From the IMG/VR virus record IMGVR_UViG_3300015177_000008, positions 32,001 through 96,000 of that record: a stretch of DNA of 64,000 bases, one strand, 5' to 3'. Source of the DNA: a virus. Its lineage: Duplodnaviria; Heunggongvirae; Uroviricota; Caudoviricetes. Every line of letters begins with the position of its first letter. Positions within the stretch are counted from its first letter, which is position 1. The notes under the pieces were generated by a model. The model was not told the origin of the DNA, searched no databases, and saw only the letters and a program-made list of their open reading frames with translations. The position numbers were made by a program, and so were the translations under genes. Positions 1 through 33,913 of this stretch are shown piece by piece.

Positions 1-2
1 CA

Positions 3-194
3 CGTCGTGACTTTTTTAAGATATGTCGTCAGGCTTACCAAAACGGCAAATCTATAAGGGTCTACATGGCAGACGGTCGTGAAATAGAAGGGATATCAAG
101 AGGCGTTGATGCTTGCCAGGTCACTCTTAAGTTAGAAGACGGCAGAAAAACACTTGTATTCTTCGATTGGGTTGAACGAATTTTACCGTTTTGA
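3..194 (+). CDS. Partial CDS, C-terminal fragment (N-terminus outside window); hypothetical protein
   Basis: Frame open from window start to TGA at 192-194; translation ...KSIRVYMADGREIEGISRGVDACQVTLKLEDGRKTLVFFDWVERILPF; not in ORF track because truncated. Confidence 0.3.
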   Translation, partial: RRDFFKICRQAYQNGKSIRVYMADGREIEGISRGVDACQVTLKLEDGRKTLVFFDWVERILPF

Positions 195-197
195 GTT

Positions 198-494
198 ATG
201 AAATCGATACTATTGACATCTTTATTTTTAGTTTACTCAATTTCGGCCAATGCAAAGGATGATATCGCAATTATTCAGTCGCTGATGAATGACGTATGCT
301 CAACGTCTCAGAATGTACCAGTTTGCATGTTTAAACTTTCAGCAGCTGTAAAATTAGGGATAAACATTGGTAAGACCGCTCAACTATGTGAACAAGTGGA
401 AAATTATGAACCATGTGAATCGAACAACTCTTCTGTGCAGTTCGTTGATGCGTTATTTGACACCAATCGTAAGGCTGTAGAGTCAGTCCGATAA
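198..494 (+). CDS. Small secreted protein (signal peptide, several Cys), function unknown
   Basis: 98-aa ORF; hydrophobic N-terminus MKSILLTSLFLVYSISANA consistent with a signal peptide. Confidence 0.45.
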   Translation: MKSILLTSLFLVYSISANAKDDIAIIQSLMNDVCSTSQNVPVCMFKLSAAVKLGINIGKTAQLCEQVENYEPCESNNSSVQFVDALFDTNRKAVESVR

Positions 495-787
495 ATGTAT
501 AAGGGTAATAACCGGCTAAGTCCGGTTATTTTTTTAAATGCCATTTATTAAATACACCTCCAATTCTACTCCGTATAAACATATAAGGTTATAAGCCGGA
601 ATTAATTATTTATTTAGGGAACACCTTCGACGATCTCGCTTTTATTTCTAGGACTTTCGTCCCTGCAAAAAACTAAAAAAAACACTTGCAATCTTTTTTT
701 GCGTATCGATAATTGAACTCGTCGAAAGCGAACTGGCTAACGACAGTAAAAAATAAATTCATTTTAATTTTTGTAAGGAATAAAACC

Positions 788-1438
788 ATGACCAATATTA
801 TCTTATCTAAAAAATCCATCGTTGAAGCTGCGCGTGTTGTAACAAATGAATTAAAAGAAAAAGCAGATCTGGCAACTCAAACATATAACGAATATTATAA
901 AAATGGTACGCACACCAAAGCAGATAAAGCAAATATGCAAGCTGCTACCACTAAACTTGCTTACTTCATCAACAACGTTGTAAACGCTGTTGAAGACGAA
1001 AAATTATGCTCTGTTTTCTACTATGCGATTAAAGCAAGCAAACAAGCGCCAGAAGTATTTTTCCGTGATGCAATGACTAATAGTTATTCACTGGAAAAAC
1101 TGGTTTATCTGGTTAAATCCATTAAAGCTGGTAAATGCGTTTATTCCGTCGCTGATATGTCAGGATCTCGTGTATTCGCTTTAATCGATATGATTAACGA
1201 CGAGATCGACACGTTCACTAATGGCGCTGTTTTCGATTTAATGAATGAAGCTAAAAAAGCGTGCGAAATTAAATTGGACGCTGGCTATACTCAAGCCAAC
1301 CAGTTGATCAATCTTTGCGAACGTCTTGGACTTGTTGAGAAAGTCAAAGGAATGGGAAGCGCAAAAGCTGGTACGCAGCAATATCGCTTTATTAAAAATG
1401 ATTTCTATAACTATCTGGCTGATGCTTTCAAAGCGTAA
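788..1438 (+). CDS. Hypothetical protein (about 217 aa)
   Basis: ORF 713-1438; start moved to ATG 788 (MTNIILSKK) preceded by aaggaataaaacc; hairpin terminator follows. Confidence 0.55.
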   Translation: MTNIILSKKSIVEAARVVTNELKEKADLATQTYNEYYKNGTHTKADKANMQAATTKLAYFINNVVNAVEDEKLCSVFYYAIKASKQAPEVFFRDAMTNSYSLEKLVYLVKSIKAGKCVYSVADMSGSRVFALIDMINDEIDTFTNGAVFDLMNEAKKACEIKLDAGYTQANQLINLCERLGLVEKVKGMGSAKAGTQQYRFIKNDFYNYLADAFKA

Positions 1439-1450
1439 TTAATGGAATCT

Positions 1451-1472
1451 GGCGCCCACTATGGGCGCTTTT
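1451..1472 (+). terminator. Intrinsic terminator-like hairpin (ggcgcccactatgggcgc + TT)
   Basis: Perfect inverted repeat GGCGCCCA/TGGGCGCC with short T stretch right after the 788-1438 stop. Confidence 0.5.
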
Positions 1473-1485
1473 AAGGAGCTTAATC

Positions 1486-1716
1486 ATGTTTATGATTATC
1501 GCTGGCGTTAACGTGCGCAATGAATATTTTGTTAATCGCATCGCTGGGATCGCTGGTTACGCTGGGCGCGCAGTCGAGCTTATAGATGAAACGACGCGCA
1601 AAATTGACTTATTGAGCGACCAGGAGCGAAAAAAAGCAGACGTGAATGACGCTGATATATTTTTAATGTTAAAAGCGTTTGTAGAAATGGGATTTGAAAT
1701 CAGTTTACATAAATAA
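1486..1716 (+). CDS. Small hypothetical protein (76 aa)
   Basis: ORF with SD taaggag 8 nt upstream of ATG; followed by hairpin plus T-run. Confidence 0.5.
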   Translation: MFMIIAGVNVRNEYFVNRIAGIAGYAGRAVELIDETTRKIDLLSDQERKKADVNDADIFLMLKAFVEMGFEISLHK

Positions 1717-1721
1717 AATCG

Positions 1722-1746
1722 AGCGCCCACTATGGGCGCTTTTTTC
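1722..1746 (+). terminator. Rho-independent terminator (same hairpin as 1451-1468, then TTTTTT)
   Basis: agcgcccactatgggcgct followed by tttttcg immediately after stop of 1486-1716. Confidence 0.65.
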
Positions 1747-1769
1747 GTTTCCAATACTTCCACCATAAC

Positions 1770-1793
1770 GCGCCAATGATGGCGCTTTTTTTT
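1770..1793 (+). terminator. Second rho-independent terminator (gcgccaatgatggcgc + T8)
   Basis: GC-rich hairpin followed by 8 T. Confidence 0.6.
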
Positions 1794-2207
1794 ATTGTCT
1801 TTGACTCACTCCAACAACATAAAAATAAGCGCAAAAATAACGCCATAGACGAGCTTTTATATCCTTACCAGCATATACCCATTACTTAGCGCATTAACGC
1901 GCTTAAAACGCGTTATATTGCGTTATGGTGTATGGTTAATCATTGGCTTTTAGTCTTGCTTTATGATCCGCGTTTATTTGTCGGCGCGGATCGGCATTTT
2001 GTTTTGTTCCGTATCCGCTCGCGTATTATGTGCGCGTGATTTTTCACATAATCACACCACTTAATCACGTATGTGATTACGCTACGAAAGAAATCTGGAT
2101 GTCTCAGGCGACGAAAGTCATCATGATTTCCCCGCTCACCTGTCCGACAACCGCTGGTTGGATTCCACCAGCTTCCCGATGTTTTTTCTACATAAAGGCG
2201 AATGCAG

Positions 2208-2281
2208 CCGTTTCCCGAAAAAATCCTGGCCGTTTCCCGTCGGCTCATGAATACGTTCCTCGCCGTTTCTGAAAATTTCCC
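2208..2281. repeat. Three direct copies of CCGTTTCCCG-type motif (same family as the array at 6694-6831)
   Basis: ccgtttcccgaaa (2208), ccgtttcccgtc (2230), ccgtttctgaaaatttccc (2262) in a convergent intergenic region. Confidence 0.4.
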
Positions 2282-2332
2282 TGCGGCAGCTGGTGGCTAT
2301 AGAGAAAGGGCCGTTTCTGGCCCTCTTCTCAG

Positions 2333-2815
2333 TTACACGCCATCAAGGATGTGGATGCGGTTGCTTGCGTATACATTCAACATAAAGTTAGCGCAAAACA
2401 GTTTCCATGTATCAACGCCAGCGGCATACGTAATGTTTTTGCATTTTATTGCATTGTTGGCGATCCGCATCCCCTGCGATACTGCTTTATCGTCGGAAAA
2501 TTTGAACGACGATTGAGTTTTAATCCAGACAGAAATCTGCGTAGCGAACTCAATCAGCTTGGACTGGCAGAATCGCCCGGAGCGCACCGGAAAGACGAAC
2601 GTTCCGAATCCAGAATTTACCACATACGCTTTCTCAAATACCCGCGAGTAACGACGATTGCCAATGATGTCGCGTGCAATAATGCATTTTTCTTGTGCTG
2701 ACAGTTCTACCGTCTCATTGTCGCGCCATGCACCAAGTACTCGTTTTTCAATGTCAGAGAACGTTACAGCGATATTGCCATGTGCGGGTGCGTTTACAGT
2801 AGCGATAAAATTCAT
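2333..2815 (-). CDS. Hypothetical protein (160 aa)
   Basis: ORF; AAACAA..TTGTTT motif 22-40 nt upstream of ATG. Confidence 0.55.
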   Translation of the reverse strand: MNFIATVNAPAHGNIAVTFSDIEKRVLGAWRDNETVELSAQEKCIIARDIIGNRRYSRVFEKAYVVNSGFGTFVFPVRSGRFCQSKLIEFATQISVWIKTQSSFKFSDDKAVSQGMRIANNAIKCKNITYAAGVDTWKLFCANFMLNVYASNRIHILDGV

Positions 2816-3018
2816 GATTAATTCCTTATCGTAAATAACAAATTGTTTTCTTGTTGGTGTTAATTATCGTTGTACGAATAAGGCGTCAAAGTGGAAAGTT
2901 GCGGTAGCCGGACGGGAACAGGTGGGTTTGTCGGTTGCCTGGAGGTAAGAGGTTGGTGTTTTTAGCCTGCGGGGAACAGGATGGTCATTTAAGGCCACCA
3001 CTGCTGGTGGCCTTGTTT

Positions 3019-3951
3019 TCAACTGGAATAAGAATAATCTGTATTGATGAGTAAAGGCGCATCATCCACTAATCCTGACAGAAACCAGCGAGCAGTCCCG
3101 TAAAGTTCAAGGGCGTCAAGATAGCCTTCATGCAGTGCACCAACCCCAAACACATCATTATCAGCCATAGCTACCGCATCTACGGCCAGATACTCTATGA
3201 GTTCTTCCATGCTTTTTATATTTATATCGTCTAAATTCTCCAGTTTGTTCTCAATCTCATTGAAAGGGATATCCGGCATCGAATGCACTATGATTTTTGG
3301 CACATCATTCTCATTATTTACCTCCACAATAACAATTCCATACTCTGTAAAAAGAGAACTAAAGAATCTATTAAACTCTAAATTAACAAAAGATGCCGAA
3401 CCATTTAAACGCTCAACATATGGGGAACGAAAAGCTGAATGTAAATTATTTTTTCTACTTTCCTTGCCATATTCTATAATCAACTCTTTATTTTTGATCT
3501 TCTCGAGTATTCCACCTAGCTCCTCTACAATTAAAGCGCCAGTGTTTTCTCTTTCTTTTGATACTATAGTTGAAAGACTGATCAAGGCTTCTGTTATACT
3601 GTTATTAGAAACGATCAGATGAAATAGCTCCAGCATAGCCAATCGACCACTATCAGTGAACGTAACAAAGTTTATTGCATCTATTTCATTTTTAATCGCA
3701 AGAAACTCACATTTATTTTTGATGTTTTCCCGAATTGACATCTCCACACGCTGTCTTATTCTCAACACCTGCTTAAAGTAAGTATTTTCAAAACATTCGA
3801 CAGAAAATGTCTTCTTACCATCATTCACAATAGCCAATCTGTATTCATATTCAAGACCATTAAGTTCAAGGCAATCACTGTCATATTGGGACCCATCTTT
3901 AACTGAAAACAATTCACTAATGTCAATTTGTCCCAAAAATACTGGTTTCAT
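3019..3951 (-). CDS. Hypothetical protein (310 aa), AT-rich
   Basis: ORF with SD gagga upstream of ATG; no recognisable motifs. Confidence 0.55.
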   Translation of the reverse strand: MKPVFLGQIDISELFSVKDGSQYDSDCLELNGLEYEYRLAIVNDGKKTFSVECFENTYFKQVLRIRQRVEMSIRENIKNKCEFLAIKNEIDAINFVTFTDSGRLAMLELFHLIVSNNSITEALISLSTIVSKERENTGALIVEELGGILEKIKNKELIIEYGKESRKNNLHSAFRSPYVERLNGSASFVNLEFNRFFSSLFTEYGIVIVEVNNENDVPKIIVHSMPDIPFNEIENKLENLDDINIKSMEELIEYLAVDAVAMADNDVFGVGALHEGYLDALELYGTARWFLSGLVDDAPLLINTDYSYSS

Positions 3952-4088
3952 TTTTAATTCCTCGTTTGTTTTCGATGTGATAATTATCGCTGAATGAAAT
4001 AGGCTAAAAAGAAGATTTGTAAGGCAACTATCTGGAAGTAAGGCAAAGGGTGGTCATTTAAGGCCACCAGCATTGGTGACCTTATTCT

Positions 4089-4370
4089 TCAGTGGAGCAG
4101 ACCGATGTCGATGGTATCCCCTGAATCATCCACACGGATCATCAGCATGGCAAAGGCGTTTAGTGGATAGCTTGCGTGCCATTCAGGGAAGCGGTCATCT
4201 CGCATGAAGTCGGCAATGTCATAAACGCATCCCTCAAAGTGGAAGAATCGCGTGCTTACCTGCTCGTCATAATCCACATGATCCATTTCTTGCTGTTCTT
4301 TTTCCGGCAAATCCAGCCATGATTCAAGGAATACATTTTGTGCTTTAGTGGTAATGGTGAAGTCAGTCAT
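4089..4370 (-). CDS. Hypothetical protein (93 aa)
   Basis: ORF with SD ggaggtg; follows a 46-codon ORF in operon-like arrangement. Confidence 0.5.
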   Translation of the reverse strand: MTDFTITTKAQNVFLESWLDLPEKEQQEMDHVDYDEQVSTRFFHFEGCVYDIADFMRDDRFPEWHASYPLNAFAMLMIRVDDSGDTIDIGLLH

Positions 4371-4374
4371 TCTT

Positions 4375-4515
4375 CACCTCCATTTTGATAGAAAATCATC
4401 CATCTCAAGATAGCCATTAAGCTCCTGCTCTGACATGATGATGTTTTCCATGCTTCTGATAGCCTCAAGTAACGACTCCCGATCTGACGAAGCGACAGTA
4501 ACAATGTATTCCATA
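4375..4515 (-). CDS. Small ORF (46 aa), hypothetical
   Basis: ATG at 4515 (MEYIVTVASSDRES...) downstream of motif copies at 4533-4596; below ORF-track length cutoff. Confidence 0.3.
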
Positions 4516-4641
4516 TTATTTCACCACCTAATAAACACGTTGTTTTCTTGTTGTTGTAATTATCGCGGTGTAGATAAGGCAGAAAACAAATTGTTATCGG
4601 GTATAAGAAAATGGCGCGGTTTACGCGCCATTCAAAGAGGA

Positions 4642-5037
4642 TTAAGCGAATACGCTTTCAGGGATTAAGGTGTCAGCAGGAATGCCGGATGTAATGCGCA
4701 GACCATACTGACCAATCCAGGTGGTGCTGGTGTTCAGGCTGGAGGTGAATACGGAATTAACCATATTCATCATGGTTTCAAACACCTCTTCATCAACCTG
4801 GCGGAAGTAGTTCTCGATTTTCAGCAGCAGCGGGTCAGTTGCATCGAGAATGGACTGGTATTGAGTCGCGTACTCGCCGCCGGAGGCATCACCTTTACGC
4901 ACGATCGTACTGGCCTGTACTTCGGCACCAGTTTCGGTGTTGTACGTAACAACGGTGATTTTTGCCACATTCTTACCTTCGGCGGTTTCAGAGGCATAGT
5001 AAACATCAACTGTCAGTTTTTCGCGTTTAACGGTCAT
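4642..5037 (-). CDS. Hypothetical protein (131 aa)
   Basis: ORF; upstream palindrome gtaagtatgtacttac (5081-5096) and TATAAAATA box. Confidence 0.55.
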   Translation of the reverse strand: MTVKREKLTVDVYYASETAEGKNVAKITVVTYNTETGAEVQASTIVRKGDASGGEYATQYQSILDATDPLLLKIENYFRQVDEEVFETMMNMVNSVFTSSLNTSTTWIGQYGLRITSGIPADTLIPESVFA

Positions 5038-5101
5038 TTCACTCTCCGTAGTGTCTTGATTATTTTTCTATTTTATAGCCGTAAGTATGTACTTACAATA
5101 C

Positions 5102-5129
5102 AAAAAAGCCCCGTAAGGATGGCGGGGCT
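5102..5129 (-). terminator. Rho-independent terminator (minus strand)
   Basis: On the minus strand agccccgccatccttacggggct followed by TTTTTT; lies just downstream of the 5164-5475 gene. Confidence 0.55.
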
Positions 5130-5163
5130 GTCGTACTGTCGACTAATTACCACTTGCACATTA

Positions 5164-5475
5164 TCAGGCTATTGCCATCACTGATGCTCTCTGAATTTCT
5201 TGCTGGGCCACGCGGTTAACTTCCATCAAAGCCAGTTCGAGCTGATGTTCCGGCCACATTCTTTGAAATGCCACCCAGCCTTTTCCACGCTGGCGACGAA
5301 CATTCATTACATAACGAGTAAAGGTGTTTTTATCGAAAGACACCGCTGTTTCACGGAACAGACGAATAGAGGTCCCATTGGCAACGATGTCCAGCAAAGT
5401 TAATTGAGCAACCAGTGCAGGCTTCTCTTTTCTCTTCTGGTCTTTGTCCAGACCAAGAACCAATGATTTTTTCAT
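5164..5475 (-). CDS. Hypothetical protein (103 aa)
   Basis: ORF 5164-5505 trimmed to ATG 5475 (MKKSLV); motif AAACAACTTGTTT 12 nt upstream. Confidence 0.5.
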   Translation of the reverse strand: MKKSLVLGLDKDQKRKEKPALVAQLTLLDIVANGTSIRLFRETAVSFDKNTFTRYVMNVRRQRGKGWVAFQRMWPEHQLELALMEVNRVAQQEIQRASVMAIA

Positions 5476-5628
5476 CACAACTCCGTAAACAACTTGTTTT
5501 CTCAATGGCGTAAATAATACCAGTAAGAAAACGGCTACAAAGCATATTGATCAGGCGCATGAGCGATATGCAGGTTCTTCCCTGCGGCTATAGAGAAATT
5601 AAGCCAGCAATGCTGGCTTTGGTTGGGG

Positions 5629-5958
5629 TTACTCGAATACTTCAAGAAACTCCTGAACGTCCCAATGCTGGACGAGGTGAAGATAGACCTTAGAAATCAC
5701 GTCATTTTCGCTATCGCATGTGAAGTAGTACTTCTGGCTGCGGTTGTATGTGTCCACACAAAATTCGCTCATATCCATAAAGTCAGCATCTTCACCCATG
5801 TCGCAAATCATCAAAGCAGGTGCGTCATCACGAGTCATCAGCTCCAGCACCCATCTTGAATTGATCAGAGTGGAAGACCAACCTTCTAACTCATAAAACT
5901 GATCAAACTCTTTTTGAGTTAATTTCTTGATTTGGTTGATGTCGATATTTGTAAACAT
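5629..5958 (-). CDS. Hypothetical acidic protein (109 aa)
   Basis: ORF 5629-6024 trimmed to ATG 5958 (MFTNID); motif AAACATGTTGTTT 13 nt upstream. Confidence 0.5.
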   Translation of the reverse strand: MFTNIDINQIKKLTQKEFDQFYELEGWSSTLINSRWVLELMTRDDAPALMICDMGEDADFMDMSEFCVDTYNRSQKYYFTCDSENDVISKVYLHLVQHWDVQEFLEVFE

Positions 5959-6096
5959 AAAGCAATCCTTAAACATGTTGTTTTCTGAATTGCGTAAACA
6001 ATACCAGTAAGAAAACGGCCACAAAGTATATCGTTACGGTGTTGCGCTGCCCGGAGGTTAATAGCGACAAAAGCCACCGTGCTGGTGGCCTCACTC

Positions 6097-6315
6097 TTAA
6101 TCTTCGTCGCCCGGGAACTCGCTGTGTACCGCGTCCACCAGCTCCCGCTTTTCATCTTCACTCAGCAGGTGCCAGATATCCTTCCCCTTGGGCGGTTCCC
6201 CTTCTGCCGGGACGAACGACCACAACTTGCGGTACAACTCCGGCCCCACTGCATCCAGACACTCAGCCAGGGAATCCACGCCCCACACCTCAACCGTCAC
6301 AGGCATCTTAATCAT
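6097..6315 (-). CDS. Hypothetical acidic protein (72 aa)
   Basis: ORF starting atgattaag with SD gaggatg; motif copy at 6348-6365. Confidence 0.45.
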   Translation of the reverse strand: MIKMPVTVEVWGVDSLAECLDAVGPELYRKLWSFVPAEGEPPKGKDIWHLLSEDEKRELVDAVHSEFPGDED

Positions 6316-6693
6316 CTCTTCATCCTCACTTCGTTTATATAACGTCTAAACATGTTGTTTACTTGTTGGTGTTATTATCGCAATAAGACAAAGGCGGAAA
6401 AGGATTTTATGTCGGGAAAGCCAGGCGGGTAGTGAGTATCCGGGAACGACACGGGAACCAGTATTTACGATATTCTGCTCTACGCGCGCCGCAGGGCTGG
6501 TGGGCAGAATTTTCTTCTCCCCGAAAACCTACTGAAATCGATTGTGACCCGCTGACTGTCTGGCACAATTACGCTGTAGCTGGGCATTCAGAGGGAATCC
6601 AGCGGTAAGCAAGTCCGCCTACGTGAGCGCCTCTCTTCTTCCCGCACATTACAGGTGGGTAGCCGCAACTCTCCCTCTCGCTATACCGGTACG

Positions 6694-6831
6694 CCGCCGT
6701 TCCTGAACCGGCATCGAGCCTTTTCCCGAAATCCACACAGGCAACTCAACCGTTTCCCTGAAAATCCCCAGCCGTTCCCCGAAGGCAACCCAGCCGTTTT
6801 TGTAGCGGGATGCAGCCTTTTCCCTGTATGG
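6694..6831. repeat. Iteron-like array: six direct repeats of GCCGTT(T/C)CC(C/T)GAA with about 22-bp periodicity
   Basis: Copies start at about 6694, 6718, 6749, 6771, 6793, 6815; inverted CGGGAA copies at 6413-6460. Confidence 0.5.
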
Positions 6832-6959
6832 ACCGAAGGCTGACCGTAGGGGTGTTACGGGGGATAAAATCAGGAGTTGAATAAATACGAAAAAGGAGGC
6901 GACACCCCTCCTTCCCTCCCCACTTATACATACCTGGCTTCTTCGCTATACATGTTGTG

Positions 6960-7500
6960 TTTTATCTGTCTCAACCTCTCTATAGGCGTTAATGCTCACT
7001 CCTTCCAGAATGTTCTATACGGCGACTATTTCTGTTGGTGAATTGGGTGTGTTGTTTTCTCTGTCGGTGTATGTGGTTTCGTTCGTTTTGCGGTGGTTCT
7101 TCTATGGGGTGTTCTCGTCGTTTTGGTGATTGTTCTTCTCCGTGTATGGAGTAATGGCAGGTGGGCGATTCCTTTCGTTGTTGTGTTTGAGTTGTTTGTC
7201 TGGAGTGTGTGAAAGGCTTTTGTAGTTATTCGTGTATTGGGTAATGGCGTTTCCCGTGATTGTTCTGTTTCGTGTCTTTTGGGATTGAGAGAAACCTTGC
7301 GGTTACAGGCTTCGTTGGGGTTTCAGTGATTCTGGTGTTTCTTCGCTGTTTGGGGAATGGCGTGTCGTGGGTATCGCGCGTATGAATGTTTTCGGATTGC
7401 CTGTGAAAGTTAGGTTGGTTGTCCGGTAGCCTGGGAAGAAGAGGTGGGTCTTTTCGGTAGCCTGCCATAAAGAGGTTGGTTGTTTTTGGTAATGGCATAT
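6960..7500. repeat. Strand-skewed (GT-rich on plus) noncoding region with degenerate tandem repeats
   Basis: Recurring core G(T/C)TGT(A/T)T(G/T)GG(A/G)(G/T)AATGGC at about 7141, 7231, 7344, 7485; only low-complexity ORFs. Confidence 0.45.
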
Positions 7501-7897
7501 GTGTTATTTAGTTGTTTTGTTATACCTGAAAATAAGTTGTTTATATGGTTGTGTAACGCAACGGGAGCGATTTTGAGCGTGTGTTTTTGTTGGTAGTGTG
7601 TTTGGTCGTCTGCGGTGAAAATTGGACGCTGTGGCGCTGTCTGCTGCGTAGAATTACGGGTATAAGCAGTGATGTGTGAAAACGTCAATTTTTTAGACCA
7701 AATCGGGTGAAAGCGTTGATGTTTCGTTGATCTGTTATTCAGTTGTTTTCTTGATTGTATAAACAACCATAACTTATTGATATTTAAGGATATGATTGCG
7801 GGTATGGAAGGGGAGTAGTGGCGATCAACGGATTCTTATAGAAAAGAATCAAATTGTGACCGCCATTATCAACTGATTGATTTGTTTACTTGTGTAG

Positions 7898-8296
7898 TCA
7901 GTTCTCGAAATGAATAGGGTCAACGTAATGCCGCTCACCGCTTTTACCATTACACAGCACTGTAACTTTCGCCTTTTCACTCCAGGCTGAGTATAGAAAG
8001 TTCCCATCAGGTTGAACATGGTAACGAGAGAAGTAAACATCGCCGACTGAGGCGTCGAACATGTTCCTATCTTTTTCACTTTGGGCAAGCGAGATGGATA
8101 TCACCGAATTCCCATTTGGGGAAACGATTTTAAATTTATTCCCTATATCCATAACAATATTGTAACCAGGTAATTGCTTGTGTGTTTCCGGATCTATTTT
8201 CATGCATCGTGGGTACACGATAGTGTTAGGCTCTTCAACTGGCGTGGCATTAGCAGAAAGCACAAAAAATATTAGTGCCAATGGTGCATATTTCAT
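7898..8296 (-). CDS. Secreted protein (signal peptide), function unknown
   Basis: 132-aa ORF; N-terminus MKYAPLALIFFVLSANA; SD gaggg. Confidence 0.5.
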   Translation of the reverse strand: MKYAPLALIFFVLSANATPVEEPNTIVYPRCMKIDPETHKQLPGYNIVMDIGNKFKIVSPNGNSVISISLAQSEKDRNMFDASVGDVYFSRYHVQPDGNFLYSAWSEKAKVTVLCNGKSGERHYVDPIHFEN

Positions 8297-8408
8297 TTAT
8301 CCCTCACAATTTCCAATTTTCCAGACCATCTTCTATTTCAGCGTCAGGGTGGAATTGTACCGCATCAAATCCTACATCGAGCACCTTTCGAATGTTCTTG
8401 ATGGTTTG

Positions 8409-8597
8409 CTATGTGACACCGTAATCACGCAGCTTTTCTTCCCTCCCCTGACTCCCCCATACTCCGTTTCTGTACCCAATTGAGTCCGAGATCGTATGGT
8501 GCTCGAAACAGATATTTGGTAGACACTCAGAGTCATGCTGTGTAACGAGGGTAGGGCTACTAACTGTCGTCTTATACAATTTGGTGAGTTTCAGCAT
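8409..8597 (-). CDS. Small hypothetical protein (62 aa), translationally coupled to upstream gene
   Basis: ATG overlaps stop of 8591-8839 gene (ATGCTGA arrangement). Confidence 0.4.
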   Translation of the reverse strand: MLKLTKLYKTTVSSPTLVTQHDSECLPNICFEHHTISDSIGYRNGVWGSQGREEKLRDYGVT

Positions 8598-8839
8598 TTT
8601 ACCACCCCGTTCGGAAACAACTCATTCGCCGTAGTTGATATAACCTCCCAATTAACGCCGACATCAGCGTTATGGCATTGTCTGATTTTTTGCATCACCT
8701 GTACGCATTGTTCATCAGTGAGATCTGTCCTTACTTCAGCAATATCTTCTTTGTGCCACATAACCATGAGTAAGGGTTCGTCTTCTGGATAGTTTTTCAG
8801 TTTCTCGATGATTTCTTTTGCTGTTCCAAACATCTTCAT
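8591..8839 (-). CDS. Hypothetical protein (82 aa)
   Basis: ORF with aggagATGaagATG start context; motif copies at 8847-8864 and 8893-8910. Confidence 0.5.
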   Translation of the reverse strand: MKMFGTAKEIIEKLKNYPEDEPLLMVMWHKEDIAEVRTDLTDEQCVQVMQKIRQCHNADVGVNWEVISTTANELFPNGVVKC

Positions 8840-8846
8840 CTCCTAA

Positions 8847-8910
8847 ATAATTTGTTTTCTTATGTGGCTTATTATCTCAATCAACAAAAGGTAGAAAACA
8901 AATTGTTTTA
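8847..8910. promoter_or_regulatory. Inverted pair of AAACAA..TTGTTT motifs at the left backbone/chromosome junction
   Basis: aataatttgttttcttat (8847-8864) and agaaaacaaattgtttta (8893-8910) in opposite orientation, upstream of gene 8591-8839. Confidence 0.45.
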
Positions 8911-8992
8911 GGGCTTGTGTAAATTAGGAGGGATTGTGTCTATATGAAAATGCCCAGCGTGTTGCCGGGCATTGTGAAGAATGGTTGTTTAG

Positions 8993-28506: not shown

Positions 28507-28926
28507 TTACAACTTCTTAGCGCCCTTGAGTAGTGCACTACGTACAAATTGAGCCGCTTTTTTCAAAGTTTCTTCACTGGTTTCACAGACAATCGGATCT
28601 TTCCACTTACCTGACGCAGTATTGAGAATATTGATTTGGTTGCTATCCAGACAAACAGAGATATAAAGCACCGTGCCACCAGCCAGCATCAAATGCATAG
28701 GAAACAGAGGCTTTTTACTGTCTTCACTGAACTGAGACATGGCGATGTTAATGGCTTCACCCACTTGTGTACCAACAAGCCCCTGCGCAGTTTCGAATAT
28801 GGCACGAATAGCCAGACGAGCCTCTCGATCGCTCATAAGCGACCGGGAATGTTCGTCCGCTACACGAATCAAAGCCTCTGTTGTTTTCCGATCCAGTTCA
28901 TCTTCAAGCAACATTTCACTAAACAT
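28507..28926 (-). CDS. Hypothetical protein (139 aa)
   Basis: ORF-track ORF; weak SD aaggat. Confidence 0.5.
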   Translation of the reverse strand: MFSEMLLEDELDRKTTEALIRVADEHSRSLMSDREARLAIRAIFETAQGLVGTQVGEAINIAMSQFSEDSKKPLFPMHLMLAGGTVLYISVCLDSNQINILNTASGKWKDPIVCETSEETLKKAAQFVRSALLKGAKKL

Positions 28927-28987
28927 TTTTTATCCTTAACCCATTTTGAGAGTTTTATTGTCGCAATGTCGAAGAGGCGAACAATTT

Positions 28988-29632
28988 CTAATGAACGGTC
29001 ACTCGGCCACAGAACCGGTTTTCTATCTTTTCTACAGCGTTATCTAGCATTCTCATCACTGATCTGGCTCTTGCTTCAACCGTGCGATATCGGTTGGAAA
29101 CGACGAAGGTTTGCAGATCCCCCCTTTGCGGATGCAGGTGAATTTTTGTCAGTTCCCCGCACATCAACGCATCAATACGAGCGACATACAGACGGTCTAA
29201 TGATGCTCGTTGTGATCGCAAGTAATCTCGCTCTGAGAGAGCGACTCCCGGGCGTAGGCCAGCAATGGCGTTAAAGTTTGAAATAGCAGTTTTGTGGCAA
29301 AACTTTTCGATATCGAGGGCTAACTCAATACATCGATCTTCATTGGTATGGCCGACCAAATCCAACGTGTAGGCCATAACATCAGCAGGTGTGCGATCGA
29401 TAACAAAGCCTTCAACACCACGCGTAAGTAGCTCTATATGCTTTGCTATTTCCATTTGAATCTGAAGCCGCTCATATAGAGACATAGACTCACCTACTCG
29501 AACACCGAGTCGGCTCATCAAACTTCCGACACCAGCATCCACGTAAGGGATTCCGTAATGTTTGTCGATATATTTTGCCAGGGTTGTTTTCCCACTGCCC
29601 TGAGCACCAGTGATCCCAATCCGGTAATCCAT
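28988..29632 (-). CDS. P-loop NTPase, putative (deoxy)nucleotide kinase
   Basis: Walker A GITGAQGSGKTTLAKY at N-terminus; ATG overlaps the DHFR stop (TAATG). Confidence 0.6.
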   Translation of the reverse strand: MDYRIGITGAQGSGKTTLAKYIDKHYGIPYVDAGVGSLMSRLGVRVGESMSLYERLQIQMEIAKHIELLTRGVEGFVIDRTPADVMAYTLDLVGHTNEDRCIELALDIEKFCHKTAISNFNAIAGLRPGVALSERDYLRSQRASLDRLYVARIDALMCGELTKIHLHPQRGDLQTFVVSNRYRTVEARARSVMRMLDNAVEKIENRFCGRVTVH

Positions 29633-30108
29633 TACGACCTTCTGTATACGATCTGCGAAAAGCCAGGCTCTTCCTCGCTGGCTCGTTGGGTATAAGCTGT
29701 TTCAACAGGCACAAAGCCTAAATTACGCATCATGCTTGCCGGGAAGAATGCATCGGCGTTTGGCACATCAACGCCGATGTGGGAGAGCCAAATCTCTTCA
29801 ACATGCGGCATGAATAGCGAGTAAATTTGTTCCCCGCCAATCACCCACACAGGCTCTGGTAATCGCAACACATCATCCACACCAGCAGGGTAGAATCCAT
29901 TTGGTACAAAGCCATGAGAGCGCGTCAAAACGAGGTTATGACGCTCTGGAAGAGGGCGTTTGAGACTTTCCATCGTTTTACGCCCCATAACGACAGTGGC
30001 GTTTTTGGTGAGTCTCTTAAATAGCTTCAGATCGGTAGAACAACGCCAGGGCAGTTCGTTCGCTATGCCGATCTCATAGTTACGGCCAACAGCAGCTATC
30101 ATCTTCAT
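29632..30108 (-). CDS. folA: Dihydrofolate reductase
   Basis: 158 aa; MIAAVGRNYEIG, ELPW, VVMGRKT, WVIGGEQIY motifs typical of DHFR. Confidence 0.9.
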   Translation of the reverse strand: MKMIAAVGRNYEIGIANELPWRCSTDLKLFKRLTKNATVVMGRKTMESLKRPLPERHNLVLTRSHGFVPNGFYPAGVDDVLRLPEPVWVIGGEQIYSLFMPHVEEIWLSHIGVDVPNADAFFPASMMRNLGFVPVETAYTQRASEEEPGFSQIVYRRS

Positions 30109-30518
30109 TTGCTCACCTCATAGATGACCGGTCTATGATGAGAGTCAGCTAAGGCGGCACGGAGTCGAGGATCGTGCACCAGCGCAGCGATAAGCAGATC
30201 GCCTTTATGCTCCGCTAATGTGCGCTTAATATGCTTCTCATAACTGGTGCCATTCGGTACGAGATGAAGCCAGTCATAATCAACGCCAAAATCTTTCAGC
30301 CATCGTTTAGTTGGCGCTTCAAGAGTTTCAGAGCGGCTACTGATAAGCACCACTTCAGCCCCTGAGCGAGCAAAACCACGCAACATACGGCTGGTGGGGA
30401 AAATGAGTTCATCACCGGCAATGAGCTGGCCTGCATCCGCGTCAGATACTGATTTACGATGGCTGGCATTTGCCAGCACACCTTCAATTTCGCATAAGAC
30501 ATACATACCTCTTGCCAT
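30105..30518 (-). CDS. Hypothetical protein (138 aa), possibly HAD-like
   Basis: ORF trimmed to ATG 30518 (MARGMYV), 1 nt after the thyA stop. Confidence 0.45.
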   Translation of the reverse strand: MARGMYVLCEIEGVLANASHRKSVSDADAGQLIAGDELIFPTSRMLRGFARSGAEVVLISSRSETLEAPTKRWLKDFGVDYDWLHLVPNGTSYEKHIKRTLAEHKGDLLIAALVHDPRLRAALADSHHRPVIYEVSK

Positions 30519-30519
30519 A

Positions 30520-31623
30520 TCACACCGCCACTGGAACCTTGATCCACGGTAGAGGGTCATAGCCAAGAATTAAAACCTCGTCCCATTTGAAATCATCCAA
30601 CTCTGACCATTCATGAGGGAAAATAACGACCGGATCTGAATGCTCTGGAGCCTGTCGTTTCATTAGCTCACACACACCTTCCATGTGGTTGTTGTACAAA
30701 TGCACGTCAAAGCCAAAATGCACAAATGCACCGGCCATGTGACCCGTAATCTTCGCGAGAAAATGAGTGAGAATGCCATAGCCAGCAATATTGAATGGCA
30801 TACCAACAAAAGTGTCTACGCTACGCTGTACGAGGCAGGAGTTGAGGATGCGTTTGGGGATTCCAAGTTCATCCAGTTCAGCTTCAGTAACACTGCCGTC
30901 CATCTCCAGATCGTATAGCATCTTGGTGTAGATAGACTCGTAACCGAGGCGACTGTGTTGAAGACCAATGTCAGTTGCCATCGTTAAACGGGTTTCAAAA
31001 TCCAGCTCACGACTCCACAAAGAGAAGACAAAGTGGCAAGGTGGCAGTTTCATATCCTCAAGCTCGCCTACGTTCCATGCGTTAAGCATGATGCGACGAT
31101 CGGTAGGGTTCGTGCGCAGTGTATCGACAATACGCTGTAGCTGATCGATTTCACGGGACAGCACTACGCGATCTTCACTGATACCCAGGTATCCCTCGAC
31201 TTTGTACCCGCGTTCACGGAAAGTAGCGATCTTGCTCAGATATTCACTATGGCTCACGATGCGGGTATCTTCCCATCGACGCCACTGCTTACCGGAAACC
31301 GGCCCCAAATCGCCATTCTCATCGGCCCATGCATCCCAAATCTTAACGCCGTTATCCTTGAGAAATTGGATGTTGCCCGTGCCTTTCAGATACCACTCAA
31401 GTTCGACAAGCAGTGGCTTAAGATTTACCGCCTTTCCAGAAATAAGCGGCACAGTCCCACCAGTAAGCATGTAGTAAGAGGGAACGTAGCAGGTGCTTAA
31501 AGTACCAGTGCCTGTGCGATCATCAGCCTGCACGCCGCTTTTAAGCACCGTCTCAATAACTTTTGCATACGATGCGTTTGTTACCTGACCGTTCGTATGC
31601 TCACGATTCAAAAGGAGTGACAC
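30520..31623 (-). CDS. thyA: Thymidylate synthase family protein with an approximately 50-aa insertion
   Basis: DRTGTGT, IWDAWADENGDLGPVSGKQWR, PPCH (catalytic Cys), PFNIAGY, HLYNNH; start assigned to GTG 31623 after SD gagg (uncertain). Confidence 0.85.
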   Translation of the reverse strand: MSLLLNREHTNGQVTNASYAKVIETVLKSGVQADDRTGTGTLSTCYVPSYYMLTGGTVPLISGKAVNLKPLLVELEWYLKGTGNIQFLKDNGVKIWDAWADENGDLGPVSGKQWRRWEDTRIVSHSEYLSKIATFRERGYKVEGYLGISEDRVVLSREIDQLQRIVDTLRTNPTDRRIMLNAWNVGELEDMKLPPCHFVFSLWSRELDFETRLTMATDIGLQHSRLGYESIYTKMLYDLEMDGSVTEAELDELGIPKRILNSCLVQRSVDTFVGMPFNIAGYGILTHFLAKITGHMAGAFVHFGFDVHLYNNHMEGVCELMKRQAPEHSDPVVIFPHEWSELDDFKWDEVLILGYDPLPWIKVPVAV

Positions 31624-31706
31624 AAAAACCTCACAAAGATAAGTAATCACTTATTCATTAAGTGAGTTTACATTTATTGAGGGAACAAGGCCAGATAGAT
31701 AAAAAA

Positions 31707-31728
31707 TGGTGGCCTATGGCCACCAAAA
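31707..31728. terminator. Bidirectional hairpin terminator
   Basis: tggtggcctatggccacca flanked by A-runs on both sides. Confidence 0.5.
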
Positions 31729-31793
31729 ACGAATAGTTGCTTCAGGAATTTAACGCGCCAACACAATATACATAGATAGATAACTACCTACAA

Positions 31794-32663
31794 TTATTTT
31801 TTGATCATTCCGTACATTGCTGAGGCTTTAGCTTGCTCAACAAAGGAGGATAAATCGACATCACTATAGGTTGGAGACTTCAGAATCTTTCCATCGGAAA
31901 TTCGAAAACCGATCATCTTATCGGTACCATCAGCATGGCGAAATCCCAGGTCTGAAGAGTCGTATTTGCAGTTGGCCACAGCCTGGCGACGTTCCTCGAC
32001 ATCAGCAGGCCATAATTTTGTCATGTTAGACCGATGAATTTCGCCAACCAGCTCGACTACATTGATGCCGAGGAAATCAGCCAGTCGATAGGTCATCATG
32101 CACGCCACATAGATTTTGTTCATGACACGGCGCAGTTCCTGAATCAGCTCAGAATCCTTAACAGTCTTGTTCTCAAGTTTATCTGCCAGCTCTTCGAGCA
32201 TACATGACGCCTCACGAGCTTCCTGAAATGGCATTGCCATATCATCGAAAACAGTGTTACCGGGCACAAAAATTGTCTGAATAAAGCGATCAATGCTCTG
32301 TTCCTGCGTGTAATAGGTCATGCCGGTAGAAATACCACCTTTGATGGCGACCATCGTACCAACACCAACGTATAAAAAGTCGGCCATTGCATCCAGCAGT
32401 TGCTCAATATCCCCATTCATTGCGGCTGGAATACCTTCCACTACAGCTTCTTCATGAATCAGGCTTGCACGGAGACGAAGCAGCTCTGGTGTCGGCATAA
32501 CGCGTCTCGGATGCTGGAAGAGTTCATGAAACTGATCGACCATCTTGTAAATACTTTCAGTAGCTACACCATGACCTTCATGCAACTCATATGGTTCTGG
32601 CTTAAATCCAATGAGTCGCTCGGTGGCAAGTTTCAGGTGGTCAGTCAGTTTGGTAAAGTTCAT
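31794..32663 (-). CDS. MazG-like nucleoside triphosphate pyrophosphohydrolase (tandem domains), tentative
   Basis: Two helical segments with E-E-x-x-D pattern resembling MazG/NTP-PPase; 289 aa. Confidence 0.5.
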   Translation of the reverse strand: MNFTKLTDHLKLATERLIGFKPEPYELHEGHGVATESIYKMVDQFHELFQHPRRVMPTPELLRLRASLIHEEAVVEGIPAAMNGDIEQLLDAMADFLYVGVGTMVAIKGGISTGMTYYTQEQSIDRFIQTIFVPGNTVFDDMAMPFQEAREASCMLEELADKLENKTVKDSELIQELRRVMNKIYVACMMTYRLADFLGINVVELVGEIHRSNMTKLWPADVEERRQAVANCKYDSSDLGFRHADGTDKMIGFRISDGKILKSPTYSDVDLSSFVEQAKASAMYGMIKK

Positions 32664-33883: not shown

Positions 33884-33913
33884 GTGTTTTTCCTTTTGCT
33901 TTTTGATGTGTTT

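What the first reader, a model, noticed from the sequence alone, without database searches (positions are those of the whole stretch)
2333..8839. Modular array of small unknown genes, each with its own motif and hairpin
Between 2.3 and 8.9 kb at least ten minus-strand ORFs (46-310 aa, no recognisable domains, several AT-rich) are arranged as repeating units: family-1 motif, start codon, gene, GC-rich hairpin. Some hairpins recur almost verbatim, for example ggtcatttaaggccacc at about 2983 and 4051. This cassette-like organisation is typical of accessory or anti-defence hotspots in mobile elements.
Basis: partly seen in the sequence, partly recalled or inferred. Interest (0 to 1): 0.55.

Follow-up and report, generated by a model that had tools for sequence, protein, structure and literature searches.

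The report
Self-contained gene cassettes in a phage-plasmid
This is the variable accessory-gene region of an SSU5-like phage-plasmid of E. coli, where most small genes of unknown function carry their own promoter, a shared palindromic control site and their own terminator, and where relatives gain and lose genes at those repeated signals.

Summary
The window is an SSU5/pHCM2-like phage-plasmid of E. coli (100% identical over window 1-9000 to a 113.7-kb plasmid, about 95% to phage Cyrano).

Ten minus-strand ORFs lie in 2333-8839. Seven strongly match phage protein families of unknown function. Six transcription units carry a conserved module, and a seventh carries half of it: an extended -10 promoter followed by the palindrome AAAACAA-N-TTGTTT. 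Seven gene ends have stable GC-rich hairpins. The two genes next to metG have no hairpin, and a conserved 1.5-kb non-coding stretch interrupts the array.

The palindrome is not specific to the array. About 18 copies lie across the element (13 in the window against 0.8 expected by chance) and 21 lie in Salmonella phage SSU5. They sit at the same genes in both: the gene before terL (annotated only as hypothetical here), parA-like, dnaB-like, nrdB and cobT-like. I read it as the operator of an element-wide regulon, probably a repressor. This is inferred, and the binding protein is not identified.

Insertions and deletions among 11 relatives end inside the repeated modules and hairpins (8 of 13 ends fall in 10.7% of the sequence). 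Three hairpins contain the Chi octamer, and seven Chi sites lie within 4.3 kb.

The closest analogue is the PeSL promoter/stem-loop cassette of T4-like phages. No evidence supports an anti-defence role. I rate it a new variant of a known kind, of moderate interest.

The parts
2333..2815 (-). 160-aa basic protein (pI 9.4), phrog_1641. It is the conserved core gene of the array, present in SSU5 and in Klebsiella relatives.
   Evidence: AF2 model pLDDT 80.9 with no fold match
2298..2328 (-). Terminator-like hairpin after the 160-aa gene
   Evidence: dG -17.7 kcal/mol, z -4.3
2831..2896 (-). Promoter/operator module of the 160-aa gene: -10 GATAAT, then the palindrome at 2835-2849
2978..3014 (-). 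Hairpin after the 310-aa gene, with Chi at 3003-3010 (+). It is the left copy of the direct repeat that flanks the 310-aa cassette.
   Evidence: D10, I1; dG -18.5
3019..3951 (-). 310-aa acidic ORFan (36% GC), a cassette present in only some relatives
3960..4011 (-). Degenerate module of the 310-aa gene: -10 GATAAT plus the left half-site GAAAACAAA only
   Evidence: (D1)
4047..4084 (-). Hairpin after the 93-aa gene, with Chi at 4064-4071 (-). It is the right copy of the repeat that flanks the 310-aa cassette.
   Evidence: (dG -16.5)
4089..4514 (-). Two-gene unit: a 46-aa ORF (4374-4514; not annotated, no family) and a 93-aa acidic protein (4089-4370, phrog_1845)
4528..4603 (-). Two-operator promoter module: O1 at 4532-4546 and an inverted O2 at 4583-4597, 51 bp apart, flanking the -35/-10. 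It is a recurrent indel breakpoint (4532/4572).
4608..4632 (-). Terminator hairpin after the 131-aa gene
   Evidence: dG -15.6, z -5.6
4642..5037 (-). 131-aa acidic protein, phrog_2473. It has its own sigma70-like promoter (TTGTAA-17-TAAAAT at 5098-5070) and no palindrome.
5098..5125 (-). Terminator hairpin plus T-run after the 103-aa gene
   Evidence: dG -15.1
5164..5475 (-). 103-aa basic protein (pI 10.5), phrog_5125. The model is a four-strand sheet plus a C-terminal helix, with no helix-turn-helix.
5482..5547 (-). Promoter/operator module (TGG-TATTAT extended -10; the best-scoring palindrome, at 5486-5500)
   Evidence: (D3)
5601..5619 (-). Terminator hairpin after the 108-aa gene
   Evidence: dG -12.4
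5629..5955 (-). 108-aa acidic protein, phrog_7645
5966..6031 (-). Promoter/operator module, 88% identical to 5482-5547. One end of the in/out event for the 72-aa cassette.
   Evidence: (D3)
6065..6090 (-). Hairpin after the 72-aa gene, with Chi at 6081-6088 (+)
   Evidence: dG -16.6
6097..6315 (-). 72-aa acidic protein, phrog_6757. It is a 377-bp cassette absent from 7 of the 11 close relatives compared.
6343..6402 (-). Promoter/operator module of the 72-aa gene; the other end of the cassette in/out event
6403..7897 (-). Conserved stretch without a credible gene. It includes an 850-nt A/C-rich segment (6930-7780: A 40, C 29, G 14, T 17% on the minus strand), a palindrome copy at 7529-7543, a degenerate module at 7731-7770, a hairpin at 6890-6916 and AGCCGTTTCCC-type repeats at 6717-6824.
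7898..8296 (-). 132-aa protein with a signal-peptide-like N-terminus. It has no module and no hairpin and lies in the most variable slot.
8591..8839 (-). 82-aa protein (annotated DUF1380 in RefSeq; phrog_10258)
8840..8926 (-). Two-operator promoter module: O1 at 8844-8858 and an inverted O2 at 8895-8909, 51 bp apart. It is a breakpoint of the variable slot (8840).
   Evidence: (I18)
1..194 (+). 3' end of a FljA-family (PF03614) regulator gene that flanks the array. It is a candidate, not shown, binder of the palindrome.
   Evidence: (E 3e-82, full length)
2165..6503 (.). Cluster of seven Chi octamers: 2165-, 2289+, 3003+, 4064-, 6081+, 6135-, 6496+

Best explanation
The region is the hyperplastic accessory-gene region of an SSU5-like phage-plasmid.

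Most of its small genes are autonomous transcription units. Each has a sigma70 promoter with a strong or extended -10 (TGnGATAAT or TGGTATTAT). This is followed 11-12 bp later by a 13-17-bp palindrome, AG-AAAACAA-N-TTGTTT(A/T), then a Shine-Dalgarno site, the ORF and a GC-rich terminator hairpin.

The palindrome is one of about 18 copies spread over the whole element. The others sit 11-32 nt upstream of the start codons of the gene before terL (annotated only as hypothetical here) and of the parA-like, dnaB-like, nrdB and cobT-like genes, among others. I infer that it is the operator of an element-encoded dimeric DNA-binding regulator. From its position just downstream of the likely start site, and from the promoters that have a second, inverted copy upstream of the -35, the regulator is most likely a repressor that keeps these strong promoters low in the plasmid state.

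Because the same 40-70-bp regulatory modules and related hairpins (three of which carry Chi) recur between genes, they also serve as short homologies. Recombination at these homologies inserts, deletes or swaps whole expression-ready cassettes.

Shown here: the anatomy, the enrichment and cross-species conservation of the motif, and the coincidence of indel ends with the repeats.

Inferred: promoter activity, start sites, repression, the identity of the binder, the recombination pathway and any role of Chi. What the proteins do is unknown. Early-expressed host-interaction functions are a guess.
For: Identity of the element.

Motif enrichment: 13 copies against 0.83 expected. A position-weight-matrix scan of the 113.7-kb element gives about 18 sites, 9 of them in this 6.5-kb stretch.

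Palindromic conservation: C at -3 in 17 of 18 sites and G at +3 in 16 of 18.

Arguments for recognition as DNA: the second copies at 4583-4597 and 8895-8909 lie upstream of the -35 and are inverted, so that the AG-extended arm of both sites faces the promoter. A further copy at 7529-7543 is far from any start codon.

Cross-species conservation: the module is nearly unchanged in SSU5 and in Klebsiella pJN2-26 while the coding sequence is only about 75% identical. SSU5 has 21 sites, including sites at the same genes (two before terS, parA-like, dnaB-like, cobT-like, nrdB).

Hairpins.

Indel ends at 3014|4047 (hairpin repeat), 5986|6347 (operator repeat), 4532/4572 and 8840: 8 of 13 distinct ends fall in elements that cover 10.7% of the region (binomial P about 1e-5).

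ORFan status of the 310-aa gene.

Chi: 15 in the window against 1.4 expected, 7 of them within 4.3 kb, 3 of them in hairpin stems; the clustering is conserved in relatives.

Expression: in RNA-seq of the 95%-identical Cyrano lysogen, the motif-bearing array genes give 6.7-25 normalised reads. Two array genes without a gene-proximal copy of the palindrome, CYRAN_102 and CYRAN_109, give about 57 (PMC9928086 S1 Table).

Precedents: PeSL cassettes (PMC2839356) and the 22 dispersed C1 operators of P1 (PMC8546580).
Against: - There are no transcription start-site or binding data. The consensus promoter scan did not call these promoters, because their -35 regions are poor.
- The site also precedes a parA-like gene and the packaging operon, which is odd for a simple lysogeny repressor.
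- No copy lies at the promoter of any candidate regulator, so there is no sign of autoregulation.
- The gene-proximal copies share an orientation-specific asymmetry (AG on the left, A at +7) and always lie just upstream of the Shine-Dalgarno site. This would also fit an RNA-level leader element.
- The breakpoint statistic uses intervals defined after looking at the data. The ends are not independent events, and BLAST alignments tend to end in repeats.
- Chi sites occur in both orientations, and their clustering may partly reflect the sequence of one repeated hairpin.
- Three of the ten ORFs lack the module, and two lack a hairpin.
Confidence: 0.6

Rival explanations
1. The palindrome works in the mRNA, not in the DNA. 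It would be a 5'-leader element placed just upstream of the Shine-Dalgarno site. Either it is a translational operator for the FljA-family protein encoded next to the array (FljA is reported to block fliC mRNA translation), or it is a generic A/U-rich translation or stability enhancer.
For: - Gene-proximal copies are always 11-32 nt upstream of the start codon and in one orientation.
- The flanking gene is a full-length FljA-family member (PF03614, E 3e-82), with weak sub-threshold Hfq/LSM-like hits in its C-terminal part.
- That gene is expressed in Cyrano lysogens.
- FljA-type proteins prevent fliC mRNA translation (PMC2652032).
- The Salmonella and Citrobacter fliC 5'UTR contains AACATCAAGTTGTAATTGATAAGGA, which shares CAAGTTGT with the motif at a similar distance from the start codon.
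- From memory only: the T7 gene 10 leader AAATAATTTTGTTTAAC resembles the motif.
Against: - At least five copies are not in a 5'UTR next to a Shine-Dalgarno site: the inverted upstream copies at 4583-4597 and 8895-8909, the copy at 7529-7543, and SSU5 copies directly after hairpins.
- There are no compensatory changes. Deviations from the consensus break the pairing, and the potential stem is only 5-6 A-U-rich pairs (sequence).
- The E. coli fliC leader lacks the 8-mer.
- Sharing 7-8 bases with one 62-nt leader has a chance probability of about 0.004-0.007. That is suggestive, not decisive.
Confidence: 0.2
2. The palindromes are binding sites of a partition-type protein that also regulates globally, in the manner of KorB (the ParB-type protein of plasmid RK2). 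The candidates are the two ParB-like proteins upstream of the array, or the 117-aa partner of the MipZ/ParA-like ATPase. On this reading the dense cluster in the array would act as a centromere-like or silencing region rather than as a set of simple operators.
For: - One copy lies directly upstream of the parA-like gene in both the E. coli element and SSU5.
- Two ParB-family genes lie about 6 kb upstream of the array.
- Half of all sites are concentrated in 6.5 kb.
- The RK2 KorA/KorB regulon, with palindromic operators dispersed over a plasmid, is an established precedent (my own knowledge).
Against: - The sites are tied to promoter position (fixed distance from a -10) and are not arranged as tandem centromere repeats.
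- The motif does not resemble known parS sequences (my own knowledge).
- The 117-aa protein has no recognisable DNA-binding domain in Pfam.
Confidence: 0.1
3. The array is an integron-like system. The hairpins would be attC-type recombination sites, and a tyrosine recombinase would move the cassettes site-specifically.
For: - The organisation looks like cassettes, with a hairpin at each gene end.
- The element does encode a tyrosine recombinase elsewhere.
Against: - The hairpins are 19-31-nt GC-rich stem-loops directly after stop codons. They are not 55-140-nt attC sites with conserved core sites (sequence).
- Most cassettes carry their own promoter, unlike integron cassettes.
- No integrase gene is adjacent. 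The only one is on the far side of the element, about 50 kb away, next to a helix-turn-helix gene.
- Half of the breakpoints lie in promoter/operator modules rather than in hairpins.
Confidence: 0.03

Closest known systems
PeSL (promoter-early stem-loop) regulatory cassettes in the hyperplastic regions of T4-like phages (Arbiol et al. 2010, PMC2839356; Comeau et al. 2014, PMC4122927)
   Same: - Repeated intergenic units combine a strong sigma70-type promoter with a terminator stem-loop.
- The units flank small ORFan genes in a variable region.
- Insertions, deletions and replacements between close relatives end inside the repeats. The shuffled cassettes therefore arrive with their own promoter and terminator.
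   Different: - The host element is a temperate siphovirus phage-plasmid, not a virulent T4-like myovirus.
- The promoter and the stem-loop are separate, 30-110 nt apart, rather than interleaved.
- The module includes a palindromic operator shared with about nine non-array promoters of the element.
- Three hairpins carry Chi.
- Mini-circle formation has not been tested.
Dispersed C1 operators of phage-plasmid P1 (22 operators on the genome; PMC8546580)
   Same: One short site is repeated about 20 times over a roughly 100-kb phage-plasmid, at the promoters of many separate operons. This implies control of many operons by one regulator.
   Different: - The P1 operator is an asymmetric 17-mer (ATTGCTCTAATAAATTT), whereas this site is a palindrome of unrelated sequence.
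- The binding protein here is unknown.
- Here the site also precedes parA-like and packaging genes.
Phage morons (genes with their own promoter and terminator inserted in prophages)
   Same: Single genes are bracketed by their own promoter and terminator in a temperate phage genome.
   Different: - Morons are defined by expression from the repressed prophage and are not thought to move by means of conserved flanking repeats (discussion in PMC2839356).
- In the Cyrano lysogen only two genes of this region exceeded five times the background (PMC9928086).
Leading-region anti-defence gene arrays of conjugative plasmids
   Same: Clusters of small, often acidic proteins of unknown function in a mobile element, one of them annotated DUF1380.
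   Different: - There is no transfer origin, no ssDNA promoter and no recognisable anti-defence gene (ardA, psiB, ssb or klcA were not found).
- The order in which this phage DNA enters the cell is unknown.

Membership tests
PeSL-type regulatory cassettes (T4-like hyperplastic regions) | Repeated intergenic composite of a sigma70-like promoter and a stable stem-loop | tested here: met
   Seven modules (six complete, one half) and seven hairpins. The promoter and the stem-loop are adjacent but not interleaved.
PeSL-type regulatory cassettes (T4-like hyperplastic regions) | Association with small non-essential or ORFan genes in a variable region | tested here: met
   No ORF has an annotated family. 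The 310-aa gene has 3 relatives among 5.8 billion proteins. Gene content differs among 13 related loci.
PeSL-type regulatory cassettes (T4-like hyperplastic regions) | Indel and replacement ends between close relatives lie in the repeats | tested here: met
   Ends at 3014|4047, 5986|6347, 4532/4572 and 8840. Eight of 13 ends fall in 10.7% of the sequence. The intervals were defined after looking at the data.
PeSL-type regulatory cassettes (T4-like hyperplastic regions) | Demonstrated promoter and terminator activity, and mini-circle formation | not testable with these tools
   Needs reporter fusions and inverse PCR.
PeSL-type regulatory cassettes (T4-like hyperplastic regions) | Located in a T4-like myovirus genome with the PeSL consensus sequence | tested here: not met
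   The element is an SSU5-like phage-plasmid and the module sequence is unrelated. It is therefore an analogue, not a member.
Integron gene-cassette array | Adjacent integron integrase, attC sites at cassette ends, promoterless cassettes | tested here: not met
   No integrase lies in or next to the array. The hairpins are 19-31 nt and directly follow stop codons. Most cassettes have their own promoter module.
P1 C1-type dispersed operator regulon | Many copies of one operator at the promoters of separate operons across a phage-plasmid | tested here: met
   About 18 sites in this element and 21 in SSU5, at a fixed distance from -10-like hexamers.
P1 C1-type dispersed operator regulon | An identified repressor that binds the sites and is inactivated on induction | not testable with these tools
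   The binder is unknown. The candidates are the FljA-family protein, helix-turn-helix proteins and ParB-like proteins.
P1 C1-type dispersed operator regulon | Operator sequence related to ATTGCTCTAATAAATTT | tested here: not met
   The consensus here is AGAAAACAANTTGTTT(A/T).
Moron | Own promoter and terminator, and expression from the repressed prophage | tested here: inconclusive
   The anatomy fits. In the related Cyrano lysogen only CYRAN_102 and CYRAN_109 of this region exceed five times the background.
Anti-defence gene hotspot | Presence of recognisable anti-defence genes, or proteins shown to inhibit defence systems | tested here: inconclusive
   No hits in Pfam, NCBIfam, PADLOC, PDB sequences or fold searches. 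No dedicated anti-defence library was available, and function can only be tested experimentally.
FljA family (PF03614), for the flanking regulator gene only | Full-length match to the Flag1_repress model above its cut-off | tested here: met
   E 3.1e-82, 274.9 bits against a cut-off of 24, residues 4-170 of 173.

The most novel reading that the evidence does not exclude
The AAAACAA-N-TTGTTT element and the FljA-family protein encoded next to the array may form a previously unrecognised global regulon of SSU5-like phage-plasmids, acting on DNA, on mRNA leaders, or on both. The 'repressor of phase-1 flagellin' family would then be in origin a phage-plasmid master regulator, and its fliC target (CAAGTTGT in the Salmonella leader) one more site of the same kind. 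In addition, the Chi-bearing terminators may mark cassette borders where RecBCD-stimulated recombination swaps ready-to-express ORFans.
Probability: 0.15. Interest if true: 0.7.

Novelty: new variant of a known kind. Interest (0 to 1): 0.45.

Why it matters
SSU5-like phage-plasmids are common in clinical E. coli, Klebsiella, Salmonella and Yersinia (783 plasmid records match this region). Their regulation is essentially undescribed.

A single palindrome at about 20 promoters, conserved from E. coli to Salmonella elements, gives a concrete handle on how such an element controls many operons at once. It is directly testable with reporter fusions and binding assays.

The array also shows that shuffling of expression-ready ORFan cassettes, so far documented in virulent T4-like phages, occurs in a temperate phage-plasmid. 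This would help explain how these elements acquire new accessory genes, and it marks a set of conserved unknown proteins worth screening for host-takeover or anti-defence activity.

Tried and rejected
- Annotation of the ten ORFs: Pfam, NCBIfam and PADLOC gave no usable hit, and PDB sequence searches of the 160-aa and 310-aa proteins gave none. PHROGs gave only 'unknown function'.
- I tested whether the basic 103-aa protein could be the operator binder. Its model is a beta-sheet plus one helix with no helix-turn-helix or ribbon-helix-helix, so I dropped it as a leading candidate.
- Rfam, at gathering and at E-value thresholds, found nothing in 1800-9000 except a chance mir-190 row on the 8839-8915 inverted repeat. 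There are no tRNAs.
- Tandem-repeat search gave nothing relevant.
- I considered that the AGCCGTTTCCC repeats at 2206-2238 and 6717-6824 might be the plasmid iterons. Rejected: the RepB-family initiator at 42021-43235 is flanked by 13 copies of a different iteron, GTATGCTGTCAGCGGT.
- Host transcription-factor sites such as KdgR, PurR, IHF, LexA or parS were recalled from memory. None fits the spacing or sequence, and none was formally tested.
- I looked for autoregulation at the FljA-like gene promoter and found no palindrome there.
- The E. coli fliC leader does not contain the 8-mer shared by the Salmonella leader and the motif.
- Literature searches for the motif sequence and for descriptions of this region in SSU5/pHCM2 elements found nothing.
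- The 881-nt A/C-rich stretch folded as RNA is not more structured than shuffles (z -1.06).

Full report
**What the window is**

Window 1-9000 is 100% identical to a 113.7-kb E. coli plasmid (NZ_JBTZOT010000003.1). It is about 95% identical, in blocks, to many plasmids of about 110 kb and to Escherichia phage Cyrano. More distant matches are Salmonella phage SSU5 and Klebsiella phage-plasmids. All E. coli matches are on plasmids and none is on a chromosome. The element carries phage structural genes, a RepB-family plasmid replicon, and its own metG and apbC. The finding therefore lies in an SSU5/pHCM2-type phage-plasmid. It sits between the element's metG (8993-11155, minus strand) and a FljA-family regulator gene that ends at window 194.

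**Check of the observation**

- All ten minus-strand ORFs exist.
- Seven strongly match PHROGs families of unknown function (E 3e-26 to 5e-96). One matches weakly. The 310-aa and 46-aa ORFs match nothing.
- Pfam, NCBIfam and PADLOC give nothing usable.
- Stable hairpins follow seven gene ends (dG -12.4 to -18.5 kcal/mol; z -2.9 to -5.5). The two genes nearest metG have none.
- The repeated motif, read on the minus strand, is roughly CTTTnnnGCCnTTnTCTTAnTG(C/G)GATAAT-(11-12 nt, often TAACACCAACA)-AG-AAAACAA-N-TTGTTTA, followed after 11-32 nt by the start codon.
- It is complete in front of the genes that start at 2815, 4514 (a two-gene unit), 5475, 5955, 6315 and 8839. It is half-present in front of the 310-aa gene. 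It is absent from the 131-aa gene, which has a different sigma70-like promoter, and from the 132-aa gene.
- A stretch of 1.5 kb (6316-7897) has no credible gene.

The 'repeating unit' picture therefore holds for about seven of nine transcription units. I call the observation partly confirmed.

**The motif is an element-wide site, not an array-specific one**

- AAAACAANTTGTTTT with up to two mismatches occurs 13 times in the window against 0.83 expected.
- A weight-matrix scan of the whole 113.7-kb element gives about 18 sites, nine of them in this 6.5-kb stretch.
- The other sites lie 11-32 nt upstream of the start codons of these genes: dnaB-like helicase, MipZ/ParA-like ATPase, the gene preceding terL (two copies; annotated only as hypothetical here), nrdB, the cobT-like gene that heads the operon with dnaE, a TerB-family gene, a DUF7238 gene and a 189-aa gene.
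- SSU5 has 21 sites. They include sites at the same genes: two before terS, and one each before the parA-like, dnaB-like, cobT-like and nrdB genes.
- Inside the array, the module is almost unchanged in SSU5 and in Klebsiella pJN2-26, although the neighbouring coding sequence is only about 75% identical. This is a strong phylogenetic footprint.

**How the site most likely works**

- The 13-bp core is a true palindrome. C at -3 is present in 17 of 18 sites and G at +3 in 16 of 18. This points to a dimeric protein.
- A -10-like hexamer, often GATAAT or TATTAT preceded by TGn, ends 9-12 bp upstream of the site. The palindrome would then cover about +4 to +20 of the transcript, a classic repressor position.
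- Two promoters (4528-4603 and 8840-8926) have a second copy 51 bp upstream, beyond the -35. It is inverted, so that the AG-extended arm of each copy faces the promoter. The same arrangement is kept in SSU5 and pJN2-26.
- These upstream copies, and a copy at 7529-7543 far from any gene start, argue for recognition as DNA.
- Expression data exist only for the 95%-identical Cyrano in strain LF82. In overnight LB cultures the motif-bearing array genes give 6.7-25 normalised reads. Two array genes without a gene-proximal copy of the palindrome give about 57. Only those two passed the authors' five-fold 'moron' cut-off (PMC9928086). Low output from promoters that look strong fits repression, but this is indirect.

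I therefore read the site as the operator of a global, probably repressing, regulator. P1, another phage-plasmid, has 22 dispersed C1 operators (PMC8546580).

**Who binds it is open**

- The flanking gene is a full-length FljA-family member (PF03614, E 3e-82). It is conserved in this position in relatives and is expressed in lysogens.
- FljA-type proteins block translation of fliC mRNA (PMC2652032).
- The Salmonella and Citrobacter fliC leader carries AACATCAAGTTGTAATTGATAAGGA, which shares CAAGTTGT with the motif. The E. coli leader does not. The chance of such a match is roughly 0.004-0.007, so it is a lead, not a result.
- The FljA-like gene has no palindrome at its own promoter.
- The basic 103-aa array protein models as a beta-sheet plus a helix, with no DNA-binding motif.
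- ParB-like proteins and the partner of the ParA-like ATPase remain possible, by analogy with KorB of plasmid RK2 (my own knowledge).

**The array is hyperplastic, and changes happen at the repeats**

I compared window 1-9000 with 11 E. coli and E. albertii relatives.

- The 310-aa gene is present or absent, with ends at 3014 and 4047. The two flanks overlap by 33-37 bp, which is the repeated hairpin (D10).
- The 72-aa gene is present or absent, with ends at 5986 and 6347. These overlap by 17 bp, which is the operator.
- The slot between 4370 and 4532/4572 holds nothing, a 46-aa ORF, or a 757-bp alternative.
- The slot between about 7880 and 8605/8840 holds at least five different gene sets.
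- E. albertii plasmids carry a RelE/ParE pair in the array.
- Eight of 13 distinct ends fall in modules or hairpins that cover 10.7% of the region (binomial P about 1e-5).
- Caveats: the intervals were defined after looking at the data, the ends are not independent events, and alignments tend to stop in repeats.
- The 310-aa gene is an ORFan. It has three clusters among 5.8 billion proteins and three representatives among 1.84 billion.
- The 103-aa and 160-aa families are confined to contigs the size of phage-plasmids.

This is the behaviour described for PeSL elements of T4-like phages. There, repeated promoter/stem-loop units flank ORFans and mediate modular shuffling by recombination at short homologies (PMC2839356; PMC4122927).

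**Chi sites**

- GCTGGTGG occurs 15 times in the window against 1.4 expected from shuffles. Seven of them lie within 2165-6503.
- The rest of the element has about one per 5 kb, close to the E. coli chromosomal density as I recall it.
- Three sit in the stems of the related hairpins at 3003, 4064 and 6081.
- The clustering recurs in SSU5 and pJN2-26.
- The sites are in both orientations.
- Whether they protect incoming or rolling-circle DNA, stimulate local recombination, or are a by-product of one repeated hairpin sequence is not known.

**What the proteins do**

This is not known. Seven of the ten products are small and acidic (pI 4.2-4.9) and two are basic. The two AlphaFold models (pLDDT 79 and 81) match no solved fold. 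A recent survey found few known anti-defence systems in SSU5-group elements. The anti-defence reading is therefore neither supported nor excluded.

**Comparison with known systems and novelty**

- The array works like PeSL cassettes but is not a member of that family. The phage lineage and the sequence differ, the promoter and the stem-loop are separate, and the module adds an operator.
- The operator distribution works like the P1 C1 regulon but has an unrelated, palindromic site.
- It is not an integron. There is no adjacent integrase and no attC site, and most cassettes have their own promoter.
- I found no description of this array or motif in the searchable literature.
- My verdict is a new variant of a known kind. 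It is a solid and testable piece of phage-plasmid biology, but not a new principle.

Noticed in passing
window 6885-7780 (minus strand): An A/C-rich stretch of about 850 nt without a credible ORF (A 40, C 29, G 14, T 17%; GC skew +0.34 and AT skew -0.32 on the plus strand). It starts after a degenerate promoter module at 7731-7770 and ends at the hairpin 6890-6916. It is conserved at 92-96% in E. coli relatives and about 67% in SSU5, and is predicted to be unstructured as RNA (z -1.06). Its function is unknown. A C-rich, G-poor transcript would be a strong Rho-loading substrate (my own knowledge).
   Followed up: partly
window 2206-2238 and 6717-6824: All six matches to AGCCGTTTCCC with at most one mismatch lie in these two places, some of them 22 bp apart. 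They are not the plasmid iterons, and their role is unknown.
   Followed up: partly
window 2905-2985 and 7427-7480: Five copies of a roughly 23-nt unit (TAGCCTGnGGGAACAGGTGGT type) at a spacing of about 30 nt. Three lie between a hairpin and the promoter of the 160-aa gene, and two lie in the A/C-rich stretch.
   Followed up: no
window 42015-43767: The plasmid replicon: a RepB-family initiator gene (42021-43235, plus strand) flanked by 13 copies of the iteron GTATGCTGTCAGCGGT. This is a P1-like oriR-rep-inc layout.
   Followed up: partly
L002 8673-9194 (ends at window 194); L019-L028: The gene flanking the array is a full-length FljA ('repressor of phase-1 flagellin') family member. The Salmonella and Citrobacter fliC 5'UTR shares the 8-mer CAAGTTGT with the palindromic motif, at a similar distance from the start codon.
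   Followed up: partly
window 52998-53416: Rfam cspA thermoregulator (185.7 bits) in front of a cold-shock gene carried by the phage-plasmid.
   Followed up: no
window 8993-17061: The phage-plasmid carries its own metG and apbC, a truncated HumD-like gene and a 1416-aa inverse autotransporter gene (12811-17061).
   Followed up: no
window about 27000-45000, compared with record NZ_JBTZOT010000003.1: Mapping the RepB gene shows an offset of about 1.3 kb between the window and the otherwise identical record. This is consistent with one IS3 copy more or less. The record also annotates dfrA51 in its nucleotide-metabolism gene block.
   Followed up: partly
L017 5169-5691 (E. albertii plasmid CP043239.1): In E. 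albertii relatives, which are only 62 kb long and so probably defective, the array holds a RelE/ParE toxin-antitoxin pair and other genes in the slot that the 310-aa cassette occupies here.
   Followed up: no
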